Shown piece by piece: positions 1 through 42,358 of a stretch of DNA of 53,224 bases (position 1 is the stretch's first letter; every line of letters starts with the position of its first letter). Under the pieces are notes generated by a model. The model was not told the origin of the DNA. It saw only the letters and a program-made list of their open reading frames with translations, and searched no databases. Position numbers and translations under genes: made by a program. Source of the stretch: Verrucomicrobiia bacterium (lineage in GTDB: Bacteria; Verrucomicrobiota; Verrucomicrobiia; Limisphaerales; UBA11358); contig DATCDZ010000063.1 in the NCBI GenBank assembly GCA_036510395.1, forward strand, positions 1 to 53,224, written 5' to 3'.

Positions 1-1925
1 GCCTGCGCGATGGCTTCGGGTGACCACGGCTGCCAGTCAATTCCGCCCGACGGTTCCGCCAAACTCGTCGTGTCCGTCTCGTCAATCATCTCGCGCCAAT
101 GCAATTTGTCTTCAAGCGCATAAACATAACCGCCGGCCAGCAAAATTAAAATAATCGTGAACGCAATTCCTTTTCGTTTGCGACCTCGCTGGACAAACTC
201 GCCGAAAATCCAAGCGGCAAACGCGAGAACGACCAAAAAAACTCCGAGCCAAAAAACGCGCGATCCATAATCGCTTGTGGCGACGCTGAACAGCCACACA
301 ACCGTCGCGAGCATTGGGAAACCCATAGCGATCTTGAATTTTTCCATCCACGCGCCGGGCTTCGGCAGAAATTTAAGCCATGCCGGATTCCAGCTTAACA
401 AAACGTAAGGCGACGCGAGGCCGAGTCCGACGGTGAGAAAAATTGAAACAATAGTAAATGCCGTTTGCGAAAAAGCGAAGCCGAGCGCCGGCGCGAGAAA
501 CGGCGCGGTGCAGGGCGTCGCCAAAGTCGTGGCGAGAACGCCGTTGAAAAATGCGCCGCTCGCGCCGTGCCGCGCCGCGAGATTTCCGGCGGCGTCCAAA
601 GTGCGTCCGCCCAGCGTGGCTTCAAACACGCCGAACAGGTTCAGCGCGACGAGTGTGACAAGCGTGGTGAGGCAGACGAGGAAAACCGGACTGCCGAACT
701 GCATTCCCCAGCCGGCCTGATGTCCGGCGGCTTCGACGCCGATAACGATTGCGGCGAGAACCAGAAATGAAAACAAAACTCCGACGGCATAAATCCCGCC
801 GAGCGCGCGGACGCGGCGCGGCGAACTTCTGGCCTCGCTGACGAAGCCGAGGATTTTCAGCGCGATGACCGGCAGCACGCACGGCATGATGTTCAAAATC
901 AATCCGCCGATGAAGGCGTAGAGCAGCATCAAAGGTAGGACGGGCGTCGCGCCTGTCTCCGCATTTTTTTCAATCAAATTAGAGACAGGCGCGACGCCTG
1001 TCCTACTCTCTGATGACGAATCCGGTGCGGAAGTTGTTTCTCCAACTGAAGATTGGCCGACAACAGGCAAGTTGACTTCAATATTTTCGTGTCCGATGCT
1101 GCCTTCCAATGTGACGATACCGGAAATCTCTTTTGGCCAGTTGCCCGAAAATTTTTTGACGATTTTCCGAAGACAAAAAAGAGCATTTGTGTTCGGAACT
1201 TTTTCGGTTGCGGCTTGGATTTCAAAATTGTCGCTCGCGTCAGGAAAAAAATCTGCCGTATCAATTCTAACTATTTTTGTTTGCCGCAGCACAGTTCCTT
1301 CAATTATCAACGAACGGACATCGCCACCGGCTTGTTTTTCCCATTGCGCGCGGATTGCCCAATTTTCATCACGTCGAGGAATTTTGCTTTTCCACGATTC
1401 AATCGTCGCAGCATCCGCAGAATTTTTCGCCTCGTTGCCGATTTTTAATTTCGCTTCGACATCTTGATTGGCCGGAATGCAAACGTCCTTGCATTCGAGC
1501 CAGGAAACATTTGCTTTCAAATCAATTTCGCCGGACGGCAAATTCGACGCAAGCGTCAATGGCACGATCAGCATGACTTCGTTTGTGTAGCCGTAAGTGG
1601 TGACTTCGATGGGCGGGAATTTTTCCGGCAGTGGCCATTGGATTTCGTCGGCGGAAATTCCCGGCGGAAGTTGCCATTTGATTTCAGTCGCCATTCCAGC
1701 CGCGCCGGGATTTTTCCAGTAAGTGTGCCAGCCGGGTTCCATCTTCAAATCCACGCCGGCGTAAATCGTGTCGCCGGGCTTCGCGGTGTCGGCGGATAAA
1801 AGCAATTTCACCTGCGTGTGGTGCGCGGACGAAAAGCCGCCGCCGATGGACGGCAATGCCGGTTGCGCCCGTGAAGAAATCGCGAGACAAAGGCAGGCTG
1901 AAAAAAGGAAAACGATGCGTCGCAC
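1..1925 (-). CDS. dsbD: DsbD-like thiol:disulfide interchange protein (periplasmic DsbD-alpha domain plus CcdA/DsbD membrane core); the 3' end lies beyond the window edge
   Basis: I checked every codon of this minus-strand frame: it is open from position 1 up to an in-frame stop at 1962-1964, and the first start is GTG at 1925. It is absent from the ORF track because it has no stop in the window. It has a signal peptide (RRIVFLFSACLCLAISS), the DsbD N-domain motifs 'GWHTYWKNPG' and 'WLECKDVCIP', then the membrane-core motifs 'LNIMPCVLPV' and 'LATPCTAPFL'. Confidence 0.8.
   Translation of the reverse strand, partial: MRRIVFLFSACLCLAISSRAQPALPSIGGGFSSAHHTQVKLLLSADTAKPGDTIYAGVDLKMEPGWHTYWKNPGAAGMATEIKWQLPPGISADEIQWPLPEKFPPIEVTTYGYTNEVMLIVPLTLASNLPSGEIDLKANVSWLECKDVCIPANQDVEAKLKIGNEAKNSADAATIESWKSKIPRRDENWAIRAQWEKQAGGDVRSLIIEGTVLRQTKIVRIDTADFFPDASDNFEIQAATEKVPNTNALFCLRKIVKKFSGNWPKEISGIVTLEGSIGHENIEVNLPVVGQSSVGETTSAPDSSSESRTGVAPVSNLIEKNAETGATPVLPLMLLYAFIGGLILNIMPCVLPVIALKILGFVSEARSSPRRVRALGGIYAVGVLFSFLVLAAIVIGVEAAGHQAGWGMQFGSPVFLVCLTTLVTLVALNLFGVFEATLGGRTLDAAGNLAARHGASGAFFNGVLATTLATPCTAPFLAPALGFAFSQTAFTIVSIFLTVGLGLASPYVLLSWNPAWLKFLPKPGAWMEKFKIAMGFPMLATVVWLFSVATSDYGSRVFWLGVFLVVLAFAAWIFGEFVQRGRKRKGIAFTIILILLAGGYVYALEDKLHWREMIDETDTTSLAEPSGGIDWQPWSPEAIAQ
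935..1006. repeat. Family A palindromic element, copy 1 (25-bp arms GTAGGACRGGCGTCGCGCCTGTCTC, 22-nt loop), inside the dsbD reading frame
   Basis: The left arm (935-959) and right arm (982-1006) are reverse complements with one mismatch. A near-identical copy sits at 42211-42280. Confidence 0.9.
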
Positions 1926-10299: not shown

Positions 10300-13200
10300 A
10301 TGAAAACAAAAATCGCCGGCTTATTTTCCGTAGCGCAGAATTGCATTCTGCCGTATCGCAGATTTTTAATCTGCGGCACGGCCGGACTTCAAAAGCGGTT
10401 TGGAATGTTGGATGCCGTGCCGGATGCAATCCGGCGATACGGCAGATTGAAAATCTGCGCTACGCTTTGCGCGCTGGCGTTCCTCGCCACCTCGTGCAGC
10501 ACCATGACGCCAACGCAGTCGCGGAACGTGCCGGTCGGTGGCACCGCGGTGTCGGATTTCAAACTCGTGGGCGATCTGGGCAGTAATGACATCGCGGCGT
10601 TCACGCTCACGGCCAATGTGCGTGTGGAAAATCCATCGGGCGGCTCGCTCGAACTGCTGGCCGGCCCGGTCGCGCTCACAGCCATCGGCGCACATCCGAA
10701 TTGGCAGATTCAGGCAAGCGACAACAAATTCATCGCGACATTTGATCACGGCGGCGTTTTTCCCATTCAGATAAAATTCAACGCCGCCGTCGGGAAGAAT
10801 GACGGCTGGAGCGCGGTCAATTTTCGCGTTGCGCCGGGCATCTTGCAACCCATCGTGCTGCAAGGCCTGCCGGCGGACACGCAATTTCAGTTCGCCAACG
10901 CCGCGCGACCGGAACGCAGCGGCACAAACTTCACGAGCTTTCTGCAAGTGGACGGCGCGGTGAAATTTTCGTGGAAACAGGCGCGCCCCGAAGCCGAGGG
11001 GAAACTTTTTTACGCCGCCGAAATGGAATCGCAGATCAGCATCAGCCCCGGACTCATGAGCCAGACGGCTCTGCTCGACGGAAAAGTGATGCAGGGCGAA
11101 ATGAATCAAATCACGTTGCGATTGCACGGCGACGGCGAAGTGACGCGCGTGGCGGGCGACGAGGTGCTGGCGTGGAACGTCCTGCCGGCGACGAATTCCG
11201 CCGACCGCCTGCTGGTCGTGCAGTTCAACCAGCCGCAGAAGAACGCTTTTGAAATCCAAGTGCAAATGCAAACTCCGCTCGGCGCGTTTCCGCAGTCGGC
11301 GGACGCGATGCAAATCCAGCCGGAAGGCGCAACGCGGTTCGCCGGGCATTTCCGCGTCGTGAACGACGGCGCGGTGCGGCTGGAAGTGTTGCAGGCGAGC
11401 GGGCTTTCGCAGATTTCGCCGGAACAATTTCCCGAGAGCGACGCCGCGCGCGCGGCGTTTCGCGTGACGGGCAGCCAGCGTTTTGCGTATCAATTTTCCA
11501 GCCCGGATTTCGCGCTGAAAATCCAGGCGGACCAAATTTTGCCGGAAGTCTCGGTCTCGCAACTGCTCGCCTATAATCTCGGCGACAGCGAACTCGCGAT
11601 TGACGCGGAGATCGAACTCGACATCCGCGACGCACCGTTGCGCGAAGTGGTGCTGAATGTTCCCAAGGGCTACGCCGTCGCGAGCCTCAATGCCTCGGGC
11701 ATGAGCGATTATTTTTTGCGCGACGGCGAACCGGATTCCGAATTGCGGATCGTTTATGGCCAGCCGGTTTCCGACCGCCAAGTGATCCAACTCCGGCTCG
11801 AACGCAATCAAGCGCTCGGTGAAACGAATTGGACTTTGCCGCGCATTGAAGTGGCGAAGGCAAAATCCACGCGCGGATTCGTCGCGGTGTCGGCGGATGC
11901 GGGTTTTCGTTTGACGGCGGAACACACGCAGTCATTGACCGAAACATCGACGGCATTTTTCCCGCGCAAGGTTGCCGGAATTCAAACGGCGTTTCGTTTG
12001 AGCGACGCCGACTGGCGCGCGACGCTGCGCGCGGAACGTCTGCCGCAGACCGTTTCGGCGGATGTGTTCCATTTATTTTCCATCGGCGAAGGCATCGCGT
12101 ATGGCAGCAGCGTAATGAATTATGTCGTGAGCGGCGCGCCGATGGCGGCGTTCCGCGTGGAATTGTCGGATGAATATTTCAACGTCGAGTTCACCGGCAA
12201 GGACATTCGCGGCTGGCAGAAAACTACGAACGGCTATCTTGTGCAATTAAATACGCCGGTGGCCGGCGCTTACACGCTGCTCGCAACTTACGAGCGGCCG
12301 TTCAAACCGGCGGGCGAGACGCTCGCGTTCACCGGCGCGCGCCCGCTCGACGCGCAATCCGAGCAGGGCCACACCATCATCATCAGCGCGTATCAATTTC
12401 AAGTGAAGGCCGTGGATGTCTCGCCTGGACTGCTCGCGCTGGAACCGGCGGAAGTGCCGTCGGAATACCGGCTCTTTTTCGACGCGCCAATTCTCGCGGC
12501 GTATCAGTATTCGACGCGGCCGTTCGATTTGAAACTCGCATTGAGTCCGCTCGCGCAGGGTAATTCGCTCAATCAAGTCGTGGACCGCGCGGCGCTCGAC
12601 ACGCGCATCTCGAAGGAAGGCCAGGTGCTGACCGACGCGAGCTACTTCGTGAAAAACCGCGGCAACCCGAATTTCCGGCTGACGCTGCCGCACGGAACGG
12701 ATTTGTGGTCGGCCACGGTCAACGGCGCGGCGGTCGTGCCGGTGATTGACGGAACGAATGATTTGATTCCGTTGCCGCAGCGCGCCGACCCCGACGCCGT
12801 GCTGATGATTGATTTGAAACTGGCCGCGACCAATTCAGACAGCGCCACGCGCGCGACTATCGCCGCGCCCGTCGTGGCCGCGCCGGTGATGCTCGCGCAA
12901 TGGAAGATTGAACCGGACGAAGGCCAGCGCCTTGATTATCTCAAAGGTTCGCTCACGCCGGTCGGCGGCGTGACTGACGTTTCAGGTTTCGCGCAACTGG
13001 CGCGGTTATTCAGCGGAGACGAAAGCGGACGCGCGGTGGTTTCGCTTTTTGCGGCGCTGGTATTGATGCTGCTGGCGATGCTGGTGTGGCGTTGGACGGT
13101 TCGTGAAGGCGTCCACAAATTCAGCGCACAGCATATTTTTGGGGCGATGATCGGGCTGGCGGCGATTGTGCTGGCGGCTTTTGTCTTCGCAAATCTTATG

Positions 13201-33826: not shown

Positions 33827-33832
33827 TTTTCA

Positions 33833-33924
33833 TCCGCAGATGACGCAGATTTTCGCAGATTAAAAATCTGAAATTGGTGAAACTGGTTTGAAAAAAATCT
33901 GCGTTCATCTGTGAAATCTGCGGA
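33833..33924. repeat. Family C-type 92-bp palindromic element (three NNNGCAGAT units per arm) filling the gatC-gatA spacer
   Basis: The left arm TCCGCAGATGACGCAGATTTTCGCAGATT faces AAATCTGCGTTCATCTGTGAAATCTGCGGA. The outermost 9 bp are perfectly complementary. Confidence 0.8.
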
Positions 33925-33925
33925 T

Positions 33926-39432: not shown

Positions 39433-40356
39433 ATGGCGGACGACGCGGCCATGAAACTCCTTTTCTCCGAACAAAATTCCGATTACGAGAACTACCAGTT
39501 TCCGTATGCGGTCTGGGCGTTTCCCGAAGCGGGCGAAACTCCGGCGGATATTTTCAACGCAGGCTTCCTGCCATCGTCGCGCAATCTCGACCGGTTTTAT
39601 CTGTGCCGCCAGGTGCGCGTGAACCTCGCGAAGTTCAAACCGTCGTCGGAGAACCGCCGGATTTTGCGCAAAGGCAAAGGAATCAATGTCGAATTGGTTC
39701 CGCGTGAAAAATATGATTACAGTTCCGGTCGGCGCGAATTTTTCAAGACCTACGCCGACATCAAGTTCGGCAAGGACGTGATGACCTTCGAGCGGCTCGA
39801 CGCCCTGTTCGTCTCGCCCATCATCTCGCATCTGCTCGTGTTCACGGATTTGGAAACGGAAAAGGAAATCGGCGTCGCGACAATTTATCTGGAAGGCAAG
39901 TCGCGGTGGGGCGAGGCTACTGACGAGCCGCCTTTGCAAAACTTTGGCGCGTCGCGTTCGGCTCGCGGGGACGCTCGCCCCACCAAATCACAGGAAGGCA
40001 AGTCGCTCGCGTTTTATTACTACGCGTTCTACGACCTGAATTATTACGCGCGAAATCTGGGAATGTTCATGATGACCTCTGCGGCGGCGCTGTTCGCGGA
40101 GCGCGGCTGCAAACATCTTTACCTCGGCACGTGCTATTCGGACAACGCGCTCTACAAGACGCAGTTCGCCGGCGCGGAATTTTTCAACGGCTTCCGCTGG
40201 TCGGACGACCTGGACGAGCTGAAATTCATCATCCAGCGCGACAAAAAGAATTTGTCCCAGCACCTGCTCGAAACGGAGGAGTTCCGTGAAAAGTTTTACG
40301 GCGGCGATCTCGAAAAAATGACGGACGCGGGCGAGTTCCGGGTGAAGGTGAAGTGA
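39433..40356 (+). CDS. Arginyl/leucyl-tRNA-protein transferase-like protein (Ate1/Bpt C-terminal fold), carrying a 34-codon repeat insertion
   Basis: 'FYLCRQVRVNLAKFKPSSENRRILRK' and 'YYAFYDLNYYARNLGMFMMTSAAALFAERGCKHLYLGTCYSDNALYKTQF' match the Bpt/ATE_C core pattern. The Cys-rich N-motif is not evident. Confidence 0.65.
   Translation: MADDAAMKLLFSEQNSDYENYQFPYAVWAFPEAGETPADIFNAGFLPSSRNLDRFYLCRQVRVNLAKFKPSSENRRILRKGKGINVELVPREKYDYSSGRREFFKTYADIKFGKDVMTFERLDALFVSPIISHLLVFTDLETEKEIGVATIYLEGKSRWGEATDEPPLQNFGASRSARGDARPTKSQEGKSLAFYYYAFYDLNYYARNLGMFMMTSAAALFAERGCKHLYLGTCYSDNALYKTQFAGAEFFNGFRWSDDLDELKFIIQRDKKNLSQHLLETEEFREKFYGGDLEKMTDAGEFRVKVK
39905..39992. mobile_element. Family D nested palindromic element (11-bp perfect termini GGTGGGGCGAG/CTCGCCCCACC) flanked by a 14-bp direct repeat
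   Basis: The direct repeat GGAAGGCAAGTCGC occurs at 39891-39904 and 39993-40006. An inner inverted repeat CGAGCCG/CGGCTCG is present. Repeat-to-repeat spacing is 102 nt. Confidence 0.85.
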
Positions 40357-41930: not shown

Positions 41931-42358
41931 GTCATCAAAGTTTCAAAGCGCCGTTCGCTGCTTGGTCGCGGCGAAAATGATTTCTGCGGCTCGGCAATGC
42001 GCGGTTCATTGGACCCGATCAATTCGGCCAGCAATTTTTCCTGCTGACGGAACGCCAGGATCATTTCCGGCGATGGCGCCGGAGATTTCCGCGCCATCAT
42101 TTCAGCCGGGTCGCGCTGCGAGAAATTGACGGCGAAAATCAAAATCCAAACGGCGGCCAAACCCGTCCAAATCCGGCGGCACGGAAAAATCAATTCGCGC
42201 CAAAGCAAAAGTAGGACAGGCGTCGCGCCTGTCTCTGATTTTTCTTTTTCAAATGGAGACAGGCGCGACGCCTGTCCTACAATTTCACGGCGGATCGCAT
42301 CCAATTTCGGCTCCACGTTTTCGTGACGGGCAAATAAAATTTCTCTTGGCGTTTTCAT
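41927..42358 (-). CDS. Small single-pass membrane protein, putative anti-sigma partner; contains family A element copy 2
   Basis: Its start overlaps the sigma-factor stop (ATGA at 42355-42358). It has a TM helix 'IWTGLAAVWILIFAVNF'. The anti-sigma role is inferred from position only. Confidence 0.55.
   Translation of the reverse strand: MKTPREILFARHENVEPKLDAIRREIVGQASRLSPFEKEKSETGATPVLLLLWRELIFPCRRIWTGLAAVWILIFAVNFSQRDPAEMMARKSPAPSPEMILAFRQQEKLLAELIGSNEPRIAEPQKSFSPRPSSERRFETLMT
42211..42280. repeat. Family A palindromic element, copy 2 (perfect 25-bp stem, 20-nt loop), inside a reading frame
   Basis: GTAGGACAGGCGTCGCGCCTGTCTC (42211-42235) is the exact reverse complement of 42256-42280. Confidence 0.9.

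What the first reader, a model, noticed from the sequence alone, without database searches (positions are those of the whole stretch)
39891..40006. Palindromic element with a 14-bp target-site duplication inserted in-frame in the conserved core of an Ate/Bpt-like transferase
Seen in sequence:
- GGAAGGCAAGTCGC occurs twice, at 39891-39904 and 39993-40006, exactly 102 nt (34 codons) apart.
- It flanks an 88-bp nested palindrome with perfect 11-bp termini (GGTGGGGCGAG/CTCGCCCCACC).
- Removing one repeat copy plus the element restores '...ATIYLEGKS|LAFYYYAFYD...', which is the conserved segment just before the 'Y.F.DP'-type core motif of Bpt/ATE_C proteins.
- The insert encodes 'RWGEATDEPPLQNFGASRSARGDARPTKSQEGKS'.

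This is the clearest insertion footprint in the window, and it again preserves the reading frame.
Basis: seen in the sequence. Interest (0 to 1): 0.7.

Follow-up and report, generated by a model that had tools for sequence, protein, structure and literature searches.

The report
Palindromic repeat inserted inside a transferase gene
An 88-base copy of a palindromic repeat that is scattered through soil Verrucomicrobia genomes sits in-frame in a surface turn of an arginyltransferase-like gene, which is a documented kind of event (repeats inside genes) with an unusual flanking duplication.

Summary
GGAAGGCAAGTCGC occurs at 39891-39904 and 39993-40006. Between the copies lie an 80-nt palindrome (39905-39984, perfect 11-bp termini) and an 8-nt non-palindromic tail.

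It is a true insertion. 184 of 192 orthologues have the empty site YLE-GKS-LAF, and one empty allele matches the restored DNA over the 30 nt spanning the junction.

The element belongs to a dispersed family in Limisphaerales / Verrucomicrobia subdivision 3 MAGs: a left arm GGTGGGGCGAGGCTNCTGACGAGCC, a spacer of 0 or 30 nt, and a right arm GGCTCGCGRGGACGCTCGCCCCACC. The window's left arm is the commonest variant.

Many copies lie in-frame inside housekeeping genes (MutL, UvrA, LeuRS, PheT, MiaB, ArgJ, PanC). A sister repeat flanks a REP-associated tyrosine transposase. I therefore read it as a REP-dimer/REPIN-like element.

- Long flanking duplications are exceptional, seen at 3 of 94 copies, and bare cores show no duplication. 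The 14-nt repeat is real but not a family hallmark.
- Four other orthologues carry a 12-13-aa remnant (right arm plus tail) at the same turn, and two more carry unrelated small palindromes there.

The host gene remains under purifying selection (dN/dS 0.08). This is a new member of a known kind, of moderate interest.

The parts
39433..40356 (+). Host gene: Ate/Bpt-like (arginyltransferase-like, GNAT-fold) protein of 307 aa from the first ATG. Orthologues start at 39451 (MKLLFSEQ).
   Evidence: ORF. Pfam ATE_C E = 1.6e-3 and NCBIfam arginyltransferase E = 2e-10, both below cutoff. 2740 homologues. Foldseek top hits are ATE1. dN/dS = 0.083 against the other insert-bearing allele.
39891..39904 (+). 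Left copy of the 14-nt direct repeat GGAAGGCAAGTCGC. This is host sequence, codons (L)EGKS.
   Evidence: It abuts the left arm with no gap.
39905..39929 (+). Left arm GGTGGGGCGAGGCTACTGACGAGCC, a REP-like unit with a GTGG tag.
   Evidence: It is identical to the commonest family variant, 42 of 126 hits. It shares 20 of 25 nt with the repeat that flanks a REP-associated tyrosine transposase in L122.
39930..39959 (+). 30-nt spacer GCCTTTGCAAAACTTTGGCGCGTCGCGTTC, in the 'A' orientation.
   Evidence: The 30-nt spacer class holds 19 of 95 full copies. It is homologous to the spacers of L025, L092 and L015.
39960..39984 (+). Right arm GGCTCGCGGGGACGCTCGCCCCACC.
   Evidence: A family right arm is present within 160 nt of 95 of 128 left arms. 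The same arm alone is retained in the short alleles L002, L125, L003 and L126.
39985..39992 (+). 8-nt non-palindromic tail AAATCACA between the right arm and the right repeat copy.
   Evidence: The tail AAATC(A/G)(CAG)GAA is shared with the short alleles. 28 of 92 family copies begin (G/A)AAA just 3' of CCCCACC.
39993..40006 (+). Right copy of the 14-nt direct repeat. It supplies the EGKS that precedes LAFYYY.
   Evidence: In the short alleles the corresponding GGC reads AAY.

Best explanation
The 88 nt at 39905-39992 are one copy of a small non-coding palindromic repeat, a REP-dimer or REPIN-like element. The family is dispersed through genomes of Limisphaerales / Verrucomicrobia subdivision 3.

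A copy landed in the tight G-K-S turn between two beta-strands of an Ate/Bpt-like transferase. Together with 14 duplicated host bases it adds exactly 34 codons, so the gene stays open. The extra peptide is carried as a disordered surface loop, and the protein has stayed under purifying selection since.

Shown:
- It is an insertion.
- It belongs to the family.
- It preserves the frame.
- It is as old as the split between the window lineage and L001.
- Selection on the host gene has continued.

Inferred:
- The family is moved by a REP-associated tyrosine (HUH, Y1) transposase acting on single-stranded hairpin DNA, a mechanism that makes no target duplication.
- The 14-nt repeat here is a by-product of how this one insertion was repaired or filled in. 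Survival inside a gene required the total added length to be a multiple of three.
- The short alleles in other lineages are in-frame deletion derivatives of the same event. They lost the left repeat copy and can no longer excise precisely. The full copy, flanked by direct repeats and able to form a hairpin, can revert to the empty site.
- The insert haplotype has moved between lineages by homologous recombination.
For: Insertion:
- 107 of 120, then 184 of 192, orthologues have a 3-aa turn.
- The closest empty allele, L004, is 92.9% identical in DNA and syntenic.

Family:
- 42 of 126 hits are identical to the window's left arm.
- 95 of 128 left arms have the right arm in cis, with spacer modes of 0 nt (33 copies) and 30 nt (19 copies).
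- The asymmetry between the arms is the same in all copies.

In-frame copies inside genes are common:
- 24 other copies sit in stop-free frames extending more than 100 codons on both sides.
- Pfam confirms MutL, UvrA, MiaB, LeuRS, RibD, ArgJ, PanC, an RlmI-like methyltransferase and PheT.

Transposase link:
- In L122 an ORF passes NCBIfam NF047646, REP-associated tyrosine transposase, at 80.8 bits against a cutoff of 80.
- Within 500 nt of it lie three copies of GGTGGGGCGAGGCTGCCGCCGAGCC.

No duplication at the family level.

Tolerated by the host:
- dN/dS = 0.083 between the two insert-bearing alleles at dS = 0.31.
- The insert (model residues 149-183) has pLDDT 26-28 and lies between strands 138-148 and 185-194.

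Site history:
- Short and long alleles share the right arm plus AAATCA(CAG)GAA.
- They also share the linked upstream SNPs GCGACAATT.
- L002 (short) and L127 (empty) are 96.9% identical.

Precedent: Di Nocera et al. 2013 (PMC3733652) report REPs inside genes. These are most numerous in the verrucomicrobium Opitutus terrae, include a GTGG-tagged variant, and include dimers encoding 20-30 aa.
Against: - This copy has a perfect 14-nt flanking repeat, which an HUH-type single-strand insertion should not produce.
- L092 has a 24-nt repeat with the same geometry.
- Three copies with outer tails have 8-9-nt duplications, which look like the work of a DDE transposase.
- Single arms fold weakly: -2.4 and -4.7 kcal/mol, no better than shuffles. 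They are therefore poor stand-alone REP hairpins.
- The tag is GTGG, not GTAG.
- The transposase link rests on a sister sub-family in one MAG labelled Akkermansia sp. No such gene is in the window or in the Limisphaerales loci fetched.
- No second copy lies in the 53-kb window or in about 37 kb of orthologous loci, so copy number in this genome is unknown.
- Deriving the short alleles from the long one also requires GGC to become AAY, or the reverse, at the right junction. Homology of the tail to other family tails is weak.
Confidence: 0.7

Rival explanations
1. It is a classical MITE. A DDE transposase recognised the 11-bp terminal inverted repeats, made staggered cuts 14 bp apart, and gap repair produced a true target-site duplication.
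For: Perfect 11-bp termini and an exact 14-nt flanking repeat. Three copies with outer tails have 8-9-nt duplications: L020 AATTCGCGG, L025 CCCATTTTT and L072 TGTTGCCG.
Against: - Repeat lengths are not fixed (8, 9, 14, 24 nt).
- 89 of 92 other full copies show none, and no offset from 0 to 4 nt gives an excess of duplications of 3 nt or more.
- The right terminus is 8 nt away from the repeat.
- No IS with these ends was seen in about 870 kb of loci.
- The clear 8-9-nt duplications flank outer GGTAGTGGTAC tails, not the core that is present here.
Confidence: 0.15
2. It is a templated insertion made by replication template switching. A stalled nascent strand copied a family element from elsewhere, using short microhomology. 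It then resumed 14 nt upstream on the original template, which duplicated the flank and truncated the element's tails.
For: - Flanking repeats vary in length (14 nt here, 24 nt in L092). In both cases they abut the left arm exactly and lie beyond a partial or full right tail.
- This copy lacks the left TTT/tail seen in many 30-nt-spacer copies.
- The host sequence just downstream (TCGCGTT) also occurs at the end of the spacer.
Against: There is no direct evidence. It does not explain how the other copies, which lack repeats, spread. The microhomologies are short and could be chance.
Confidence: 0.1
3. The segment is an ancestral or functionally recruited loop of the transferase, lost in most orthologues and not a mobile insertion.
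For: Insert-bearing alleles are scattered over the gene tree. The arms are unchanged (0 of 50 positions) between the window and L001, while the spacer, tail and repeats differ at 7 of 66. The gene is under purifying selection.
Against: The same nucleotide sequence occurs in dozens of unrelated genes and in intergenic DNA. 184 of 192 orthologues lack it. The loop is modelled as disordered. Conservation of the arms is equally explained by conversion from other copies or by a constraint at the DNA level.
Confidence: 0.04

Closest known systems
REP / REPIN elements with RAYT (REP-associated tyrosine transposases); GTAG-tagged REPs of Di Nocera et al. 2013 (PMC3733652), including REP dimers inside genes of Opitutus terrae
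   Same: - Short GC-rich palindromic units occur mostly as inverted dimers with variable spacers.
- The 5' tag is of the GTAG type; a GTGG variant is documented in O. terrae.
- Copies are dispersed and mostly show no target duplication.
- A sister repeat lies next to a gene that passes the NCBIfam RAYT model.
- Copies inside genes are in-frame and encode about 17-30 aa. DNA-repair and tRNA-synthetase genes are among the hosts (paper).
   Different: - The sequence is unrelated to the O. terrae peptides listed in that paper.
- The two arms are consistently different from each other in their central 9 nt.
- Single arms fold poorly.
- This copy has a 14-nt flanking repeat.
- A subset has outer tails with 8-9-nt duplications.
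- No RAYT has been shown for this sub-family or this genome.
Rickettsia palindromic elements (RPE)
   Same: Palindromic repeats inserted in-frame into protein-coding genes that remain functional, adding a surface peptide.
   Different: The phylum is different and there is no sequence relationship (from my own knowledge, not tested by alignment). RPEs are about 100-150 nt. The family here also abounds between genes and has a candidate transposase link.
Bacterial MITEs (Correia/NEMIS, RUP, ERIC, Nezha)
   Same: Terminal inverted repeats, small size, no coding capacity and occasional target duplications.
   Different: MITEs give a duplication of fixed length set by the parent transposase. Here most copies have none, and the lengths seen are 8, 9, 14 and 24 nt.

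Membership tests
REP / REPIN (RAYT-mobilised) | The unit is a short (20-40 nt) imperfect palindrome able to form a stem-loop on its own | tested here: inconclusive
   The arms are 25 nt. The left arm folds at -2.4 kcal/mol and the right arm at -4.7 kcal/mol, no better than shuffles. The 50-nt dimer folds at -16.4 kcal/mol, z = -2.8.
REP / REPIN (RAYT-mobilised) | Conserved 5' tetranucleotide tag (GTAG or CGTC) | tested here: inconclusive
   The tag is GTGG (G-GTGG-GGCGAG). Di Nocera et al. 2013 report GTAG mutated to GTGG in most O. terrae GTAG-20 elements. The scan pattern fixed this tag, so GTAG variants of the family were not sampled.
REP / REPIN (RAYT-mobilised) | Two units in inverted orientation form the replicating doublet | tested here: met
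   95 of 128 left arms have the right arm within 160 nt. The spacer modes are 0 and 30 nt.
REP / REPIN (RAYT-mobilised) | Many copies within one genome | tested here: inconclusive
There is only one copy in this 53-kb window and none in 37 kb of orthologous loci. No whole genome could be scanned.
REP / REPIN (RAYT-mobilised) | A cognate RAYT gene flanked by the repeats (REPtron) | tested here: inconclusive
   L122 ORF 905-1435(-) passes NF047646 at 80.8 bits against a cutoff of 80. It has three sister repeats at 434-859. That is a different sub-family in a MAG labelled Akkermansia sp. None was found in the window or in the Limisphaerales loci.
REP / REPIN (RAYT-mobilised) | Insertion without target-site duplication | tested here: inconclusive
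   Met at the family level: no flank repeat above control in 91 of 94 copies, and none of 3 nt or more at offsets 0-4. Not met by this copy, which has a 14-nt repeat.
MITE (DDE-transposase derived) | Terminal inverted repeats | tested here: met
   Perfect 11-bp termini.
MITE (DDE-transposase derived) | Target-site duplication of a fixed, family-specific length directly abutting both ends | tested here: not met
   The lengths seen are 8, 9, 9, 14 and 24 nt, and most copies have none. Here the right repeat copy is 8 nt away from the terminus.
MITE (DDE-transposase derived) | A parent IS with matching ends | not tested
   No systematic search was made. None was noticed in the loci.
Rickettsia palindromic elements | In-frame insertion in genes that stay functional | tested here: met
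   The frame is kept. dN/dS = 0.083. Nine housekeeping hosts were confirmed.
Rickettsia palindromic elements | Sequence membership in RPE-1 to RPE-8 of Rickettsia | not tested
   The phylum is different and no RPE sequences were at hand. Rfam gave no match to the region.
ATE_C / Bpt aminoacyl-tRNA-protein transferase (host protein) | Passes the curated family model | tested here: not met
   Pfam ATE_C scores 19.5 bits against a cutoff of 25. The best NCBIfam arginyltransferase model scores 40 bits against 170. Fold-level support only: ATE1 top hits with probability 1.0 but TM 0.33, from a model with pLDDT 50.

The most novel reading that the evidence does not exclude
The turn of this transferase may be an actively targeted site, not merely a tolerant one. 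It carries the full dimer in one clade and a right-arm remnant in at least three other lineages. It also carries two unrelated small palindromes in further lineages (L128 CCGGGCCCAGCCCGG, L129 CCCCTCCAAGGAGGGG).

The arms have not changed at any of 50 positions over dS = 0.31, while neighbouring insert bases changed at 7 of 66. This would fit a family that homes to particular DNA structures or sequences inside genes and whose arms are kept by selection at the DNA or RNA level. The variable-length flank duplications would then reflect an undescribed insertion route.
Probability: 0.12. Interest if true: 0.65.

Novelty: new member of a known kind. Interest (0 to 1): 0.35.

Why it matters
It adds a clear, datable example from uncultured soil and peat Verrucomicrobia to a small set of cases in which palindromic repeats colonise protein-coding genes without destroying them. 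The other cases are the Rickettsia RPEs and the Opitutus REPs.

The locus offers empty, full and remnant alleles of the same site. It therefore gives a natural series for studying how such inserts arise, decay or excise, and how proteins gain loops.

For annotation, it explains the length variation and the odd 'WGEATDEP...ARGDARPT' peptides found in many Limisphaerales proteins.

Tried and rejected
- Other copies in the window or orthologous loci: none found.
- Rfam over the region: only sub-threshold noise. I considered a hammerhead-like reading of CTGACGAG and dropped it, because there is no GAAA or stem III and no Rfam hit.
- Two metagenome scans, one for the insert junction pattern and one for the window-specific spacer: both returned 0 hits, and the collection evidently lacks even L002.
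- A protein search with the 54-aa insert peptide failed for lack of indexed words.
- A sequence search of the PDB with the family profile found nothing relevant.
- The AF2 model is poor (pLDDT 50) because the alignment is shallow. Only its secondary structure and coarse fold were used.
- A short target duplication abutting bare cores, tested at offsets 0-4: none.
- Homology of the 15-nt tail to other family tails: only a weak A-rich signal. The alternative parse, a 95-nt element with a 7-nt duplication AAGTCGC and later homogenisation of AAY to GGC, therefore stays open.
- The scan pattern turned out to match only the left-arm type. Right arms were then found in cis.
- The 24 of 93 copies inside long ORFs is not an enrichment over random positions in gene-dense genomes. 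It shows only that such copies keep the frame.

Full report
**1. Observation**

- The 14-nt repeat GGAAGGCAAGTCGC is present exactly twice, at 39891-39904 and 39993-40006, 102 nt apart.
- Between the copies, inverted arms at 39905-39930 and 39959-39984 are 77% complementary and have perfect 11-nt termini.
- The palindrome proper is 80 nt. Eight further bases, AAATCACA (39985-39992), separate it from the right repeat copy, so the right end is not flush.
- The ORF 39433-40356 (+) reads through and encodes the quoted 34 aa.
- The 80-nt core folds as DNA at -23.4 kcal/mol, z = -2.6. The wider 128-nt region folded as RNA is unremarkable for this GC-rich sequence, z = -0.18.

**2. It is an insertion**

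- The host protein has 2740 homologues.
- Of the 192 sequences retrieved in two searches, 184 have a 3-aa turn, mostly YLE-GKS/GKA-LAFYYY.
- Deleting 102 nt from the window reproduces the DNA of the empty allele L127 over the 30 nt spanning the junction.
- The nearest relative with an empty site, L004, is syntenic and 92.9% identical in DNA.
- One other allele carries the same long insert: P0001/L001, 91.8% identical in DNA and syntenic. This independent assembly rules out an assembly artefact.

**3. It belongs to a dispersed family**

Nearly all are MAGs of Verrucomicrobiota, labelled Limisphaerales or 'subdivision 3'. A few bins carry labels of other phyla, such as Bifidobacteriaceae, which may be mislabelled.
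- 42 of 126 hits are identical to the window's left arm.
- The right arm GGCTCGCG(A/G)GGACGCTCGCCCCACC lies within 160 nt downstream of 95 of 128 left arms. The spacer is 0 nt in 33 copies and 30 nt in 19, the window among the latter.
- The two arms differ in their central 9 nt in the same way in all copies.
- The 30-nt spacer occurs in both orientations relative to the arms: 11 copies one way and 9 the other.
- Rfam has no match to the region.

**4. Copies inside genes are frequent**

- 24 other copies lie in stop-free frames extending more than 100 codons on both sides.
- Pfam confirms nine hosts: MutL, UvrA, MiaB, LeuRS, RibD, ArgJ, PanC, an RlmI-like methyltransferase and PheT. In ArgJ and PanC the domain match runs across the insert.
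- All stop-free frames are used, giving WGEATDEP..AR(E/G)DARPT, GGASV..LVSSLAPP and VGRASSRAGSS.ASPH.
- Several inserts occupy the same site in orthologous genes of different MAGs.
- This matches Di Nocera et al. 2013 (PMC3733652). They report REPs inside genes, most numerous in the verrucomicrobium Opitutus terrae. They also report dimers encoding 20-30 aa, hosts that include repair genes and tRNA synthetases, and a GTGG-tagged variant. The O. terrae peptides they list are unrelated in sequence to these.

**5. Mobilisation**

- In L122, from a MAG labelled Akkermansia sp., an ORF passes the NCBIfam model for REP-associated tyrosine transposase (80.8 bits, cutoff 80). Within 500 nt of it are three copies of GGTGGGGCGAGGCTGCCGCCGAGCC, which shares 20 of 25 nt with the window's left arm. 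This links the arm type to RAYT, but only through a sister sub-family. No such gene is in the window.
- Across the family there is no target duplication. Among 94 full copies only the window (14 nt), its orthologue L001 (12 nt) and L092 (24 nt) have a flank repeat above the control maximum of 10 nt.
- No offset from 0 to 4 nt gives an excess of duplications of 3 nt or more.
- Three copies have extra outer tails (GGTAGTGGTAC..TTTT | core | (G/A)AAA..GTACCACTACC) and show 8-9-nt duplications outside those tails.
- Single arms fold weakly, whereas the dimer folds well.
- My reading is a REP-dimer/REPIN-like element moved by an HUH-type enzyme. That step is inferred. The 14-nt repeat is an atypical by-product of this insertion. 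Since 88 + 14 = 102 = 34 codons, only events that restore the frame can survive in this gene.
- A DDE-type MITE and a template-switch insertion remain as rivals.

**6. Site history**

- Four orthologues carry a 12-13-aa insert at the same turn: P0002/L002, P0003/L125, P0050/L126 and P0054/L003. Each consists of the last 1-2 spacer bases, the right arm, and the tail AAATC(A/G)(CAG)GA(A/C)AAY placed before AAG.
- These alleles are scattered among empty alleles on the gene tree.
- L002 (short) and L127 (empty) are 96.9% identical. The insert-bearing alleles of the close group share the SNPs GCGACAATT immediately upstream, against GCCACG(A/C)TT in the empty alleles. This suggests the insert haplotype spreads by homologous recombination.
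- The shared tail argues that the long and short forms descend from one event. The short forms would then be in-frame 60- or 63-nt deletions that removed the left repeat copy. They can no longer excise precisely, whereas the full copy can.
- The difference between GGC (long form) and AAY (short forms) at the right junction is unexplained. An alternative parse is a 95-nt element with a 7-nt duplication AAGTCGC that was later homogenised. This cannot be excluded, because the tail's homology to other family tails is weak.
- Two further orthologues carry unrelated small palindromes in the same turn.

**7. Consequences for the host**

- The protein is Ate/Bpt-like only at low stringency. A sequence search of the PDB found nothing.
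- A low-confidence AF2 model (pLDDT 50) places the insert, itself at pLDDT 26-28, between strands 138-148 and 185-194. Its best structural matches are ATE1 and other aminoacyl-tRNA transferases of the GNAT fold.
- Between the two insert-bearing alleles dS = 0.31 and dN/dS = 0.083, the same as against the empty allele L004. The gene has therefore stayed functional since the insertion.
- Within the insert the arms differ at 0 of 50 positions. The spacer, tail and repeats differ at 7 of 66. The arms are thus held constant, either by conversion from other copies or by a constraint at the DNA or RNA level.

**8. Verdict**

- The finding is real and largely correctly read.
- It is a new member of a known kind: REP-type palindromic repeats inserted in-frame inside genes.
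- Two features deserve follow-up: the atypical flanking duplication, and the repeated occupation of the same protein turn.
- Interest is moderate.

Noticed in passing
window 935-1006 and 42211-42280: Two copies of a different, GTAG-tagged REPIN-like doublet. The arms are GTAGGACAGGCGTCGCGCCTGTCTC and its complement, 96-100% complementary, with a 20-22-nt loop. Both appear to lie between genes.
   Followed up: partly
window 10329-10464 and 33832-33925: Further palindromic clusters built on GCAGATT...AATCTGC hairpins, with arms of 30-40 nt at 80-90% complementarity. This genome carries several repeat families.
   Followed up: no
L128 1627-1692 and L129 510-581 (orthologues P0178, P0184): The same beta-turn of the transferase carries unrelated small palindromes, CCGGGCCCAGCCCGG and CCCCTCCAAGGAGGGG. 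Both are inserted after GGC AAA and both end ..CGAAT before TC.
   Followed up: partly
L020, L025, L030, L035, L070, L088, L092, L106, L114 and other 30-nt-spacer copies: The 30-nt spacer occurs in both orientations relative to the fixed arm asymmetry, 11 copies against 9. This is a flip/flop arrangement that suggests inversion or hairpin-mediated copying of the loop.
   Followed up: partly
L020, L025, L072: Copies with outer tails (GGTAGTGGTAC..TTTT | core | (G/A)AAA..GTACCACTACC) are flanked by 8-9-nt direct repeats: AATTCGCGG, CCCATTTTT and TGTTGCCG. L092 has a 24-nt repeat with the same geometry as the window.
   Followed up: partly
L122 434-1435: A gene that passes the REP-associated tyrosine transposase model (905-1435, minus strand). 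Three copies of the sister repeat GGTGGGGCGAGGCTGCCGCCGAGCC lie just downstream, at 434-458, 636-660 and 835-859.
   Followed up: partly
L024/L079 (ArgJ); L021/L042/L081 (LeuRS); L039/L045; L099/L105/L121: Family copies occupy the same position in orthologous genes of different MAGs. The inserts are therefore either old and stable or recurrent at preferred sites.
   Followed up: no
L002 9336-10004, L003 1217-4993, L127 462-3004, L128 501-1191: Between the alanine racemase gene and the transferase gene, orthologous loci carry variable toxin-antitoxin or defence-like cassettes: PIN/PhdYeFM, HEPN/nucleotidyltransferase, HNH and an N6/N4 methyltransferase. In L128 the contig does not reach the racemase gene. 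The window clade has KdsA/KdsC upstream instead.
   Followed up: no
window 39905-39929 and 39960-39984 versus L001 2601-2625 and 2656-2680: The arms are identical in the two lineages (0 of 50 positions), although the gene has dS = 0.31 and the rest of the insert differs at 7 of 66 positions.
   Followed up: partly
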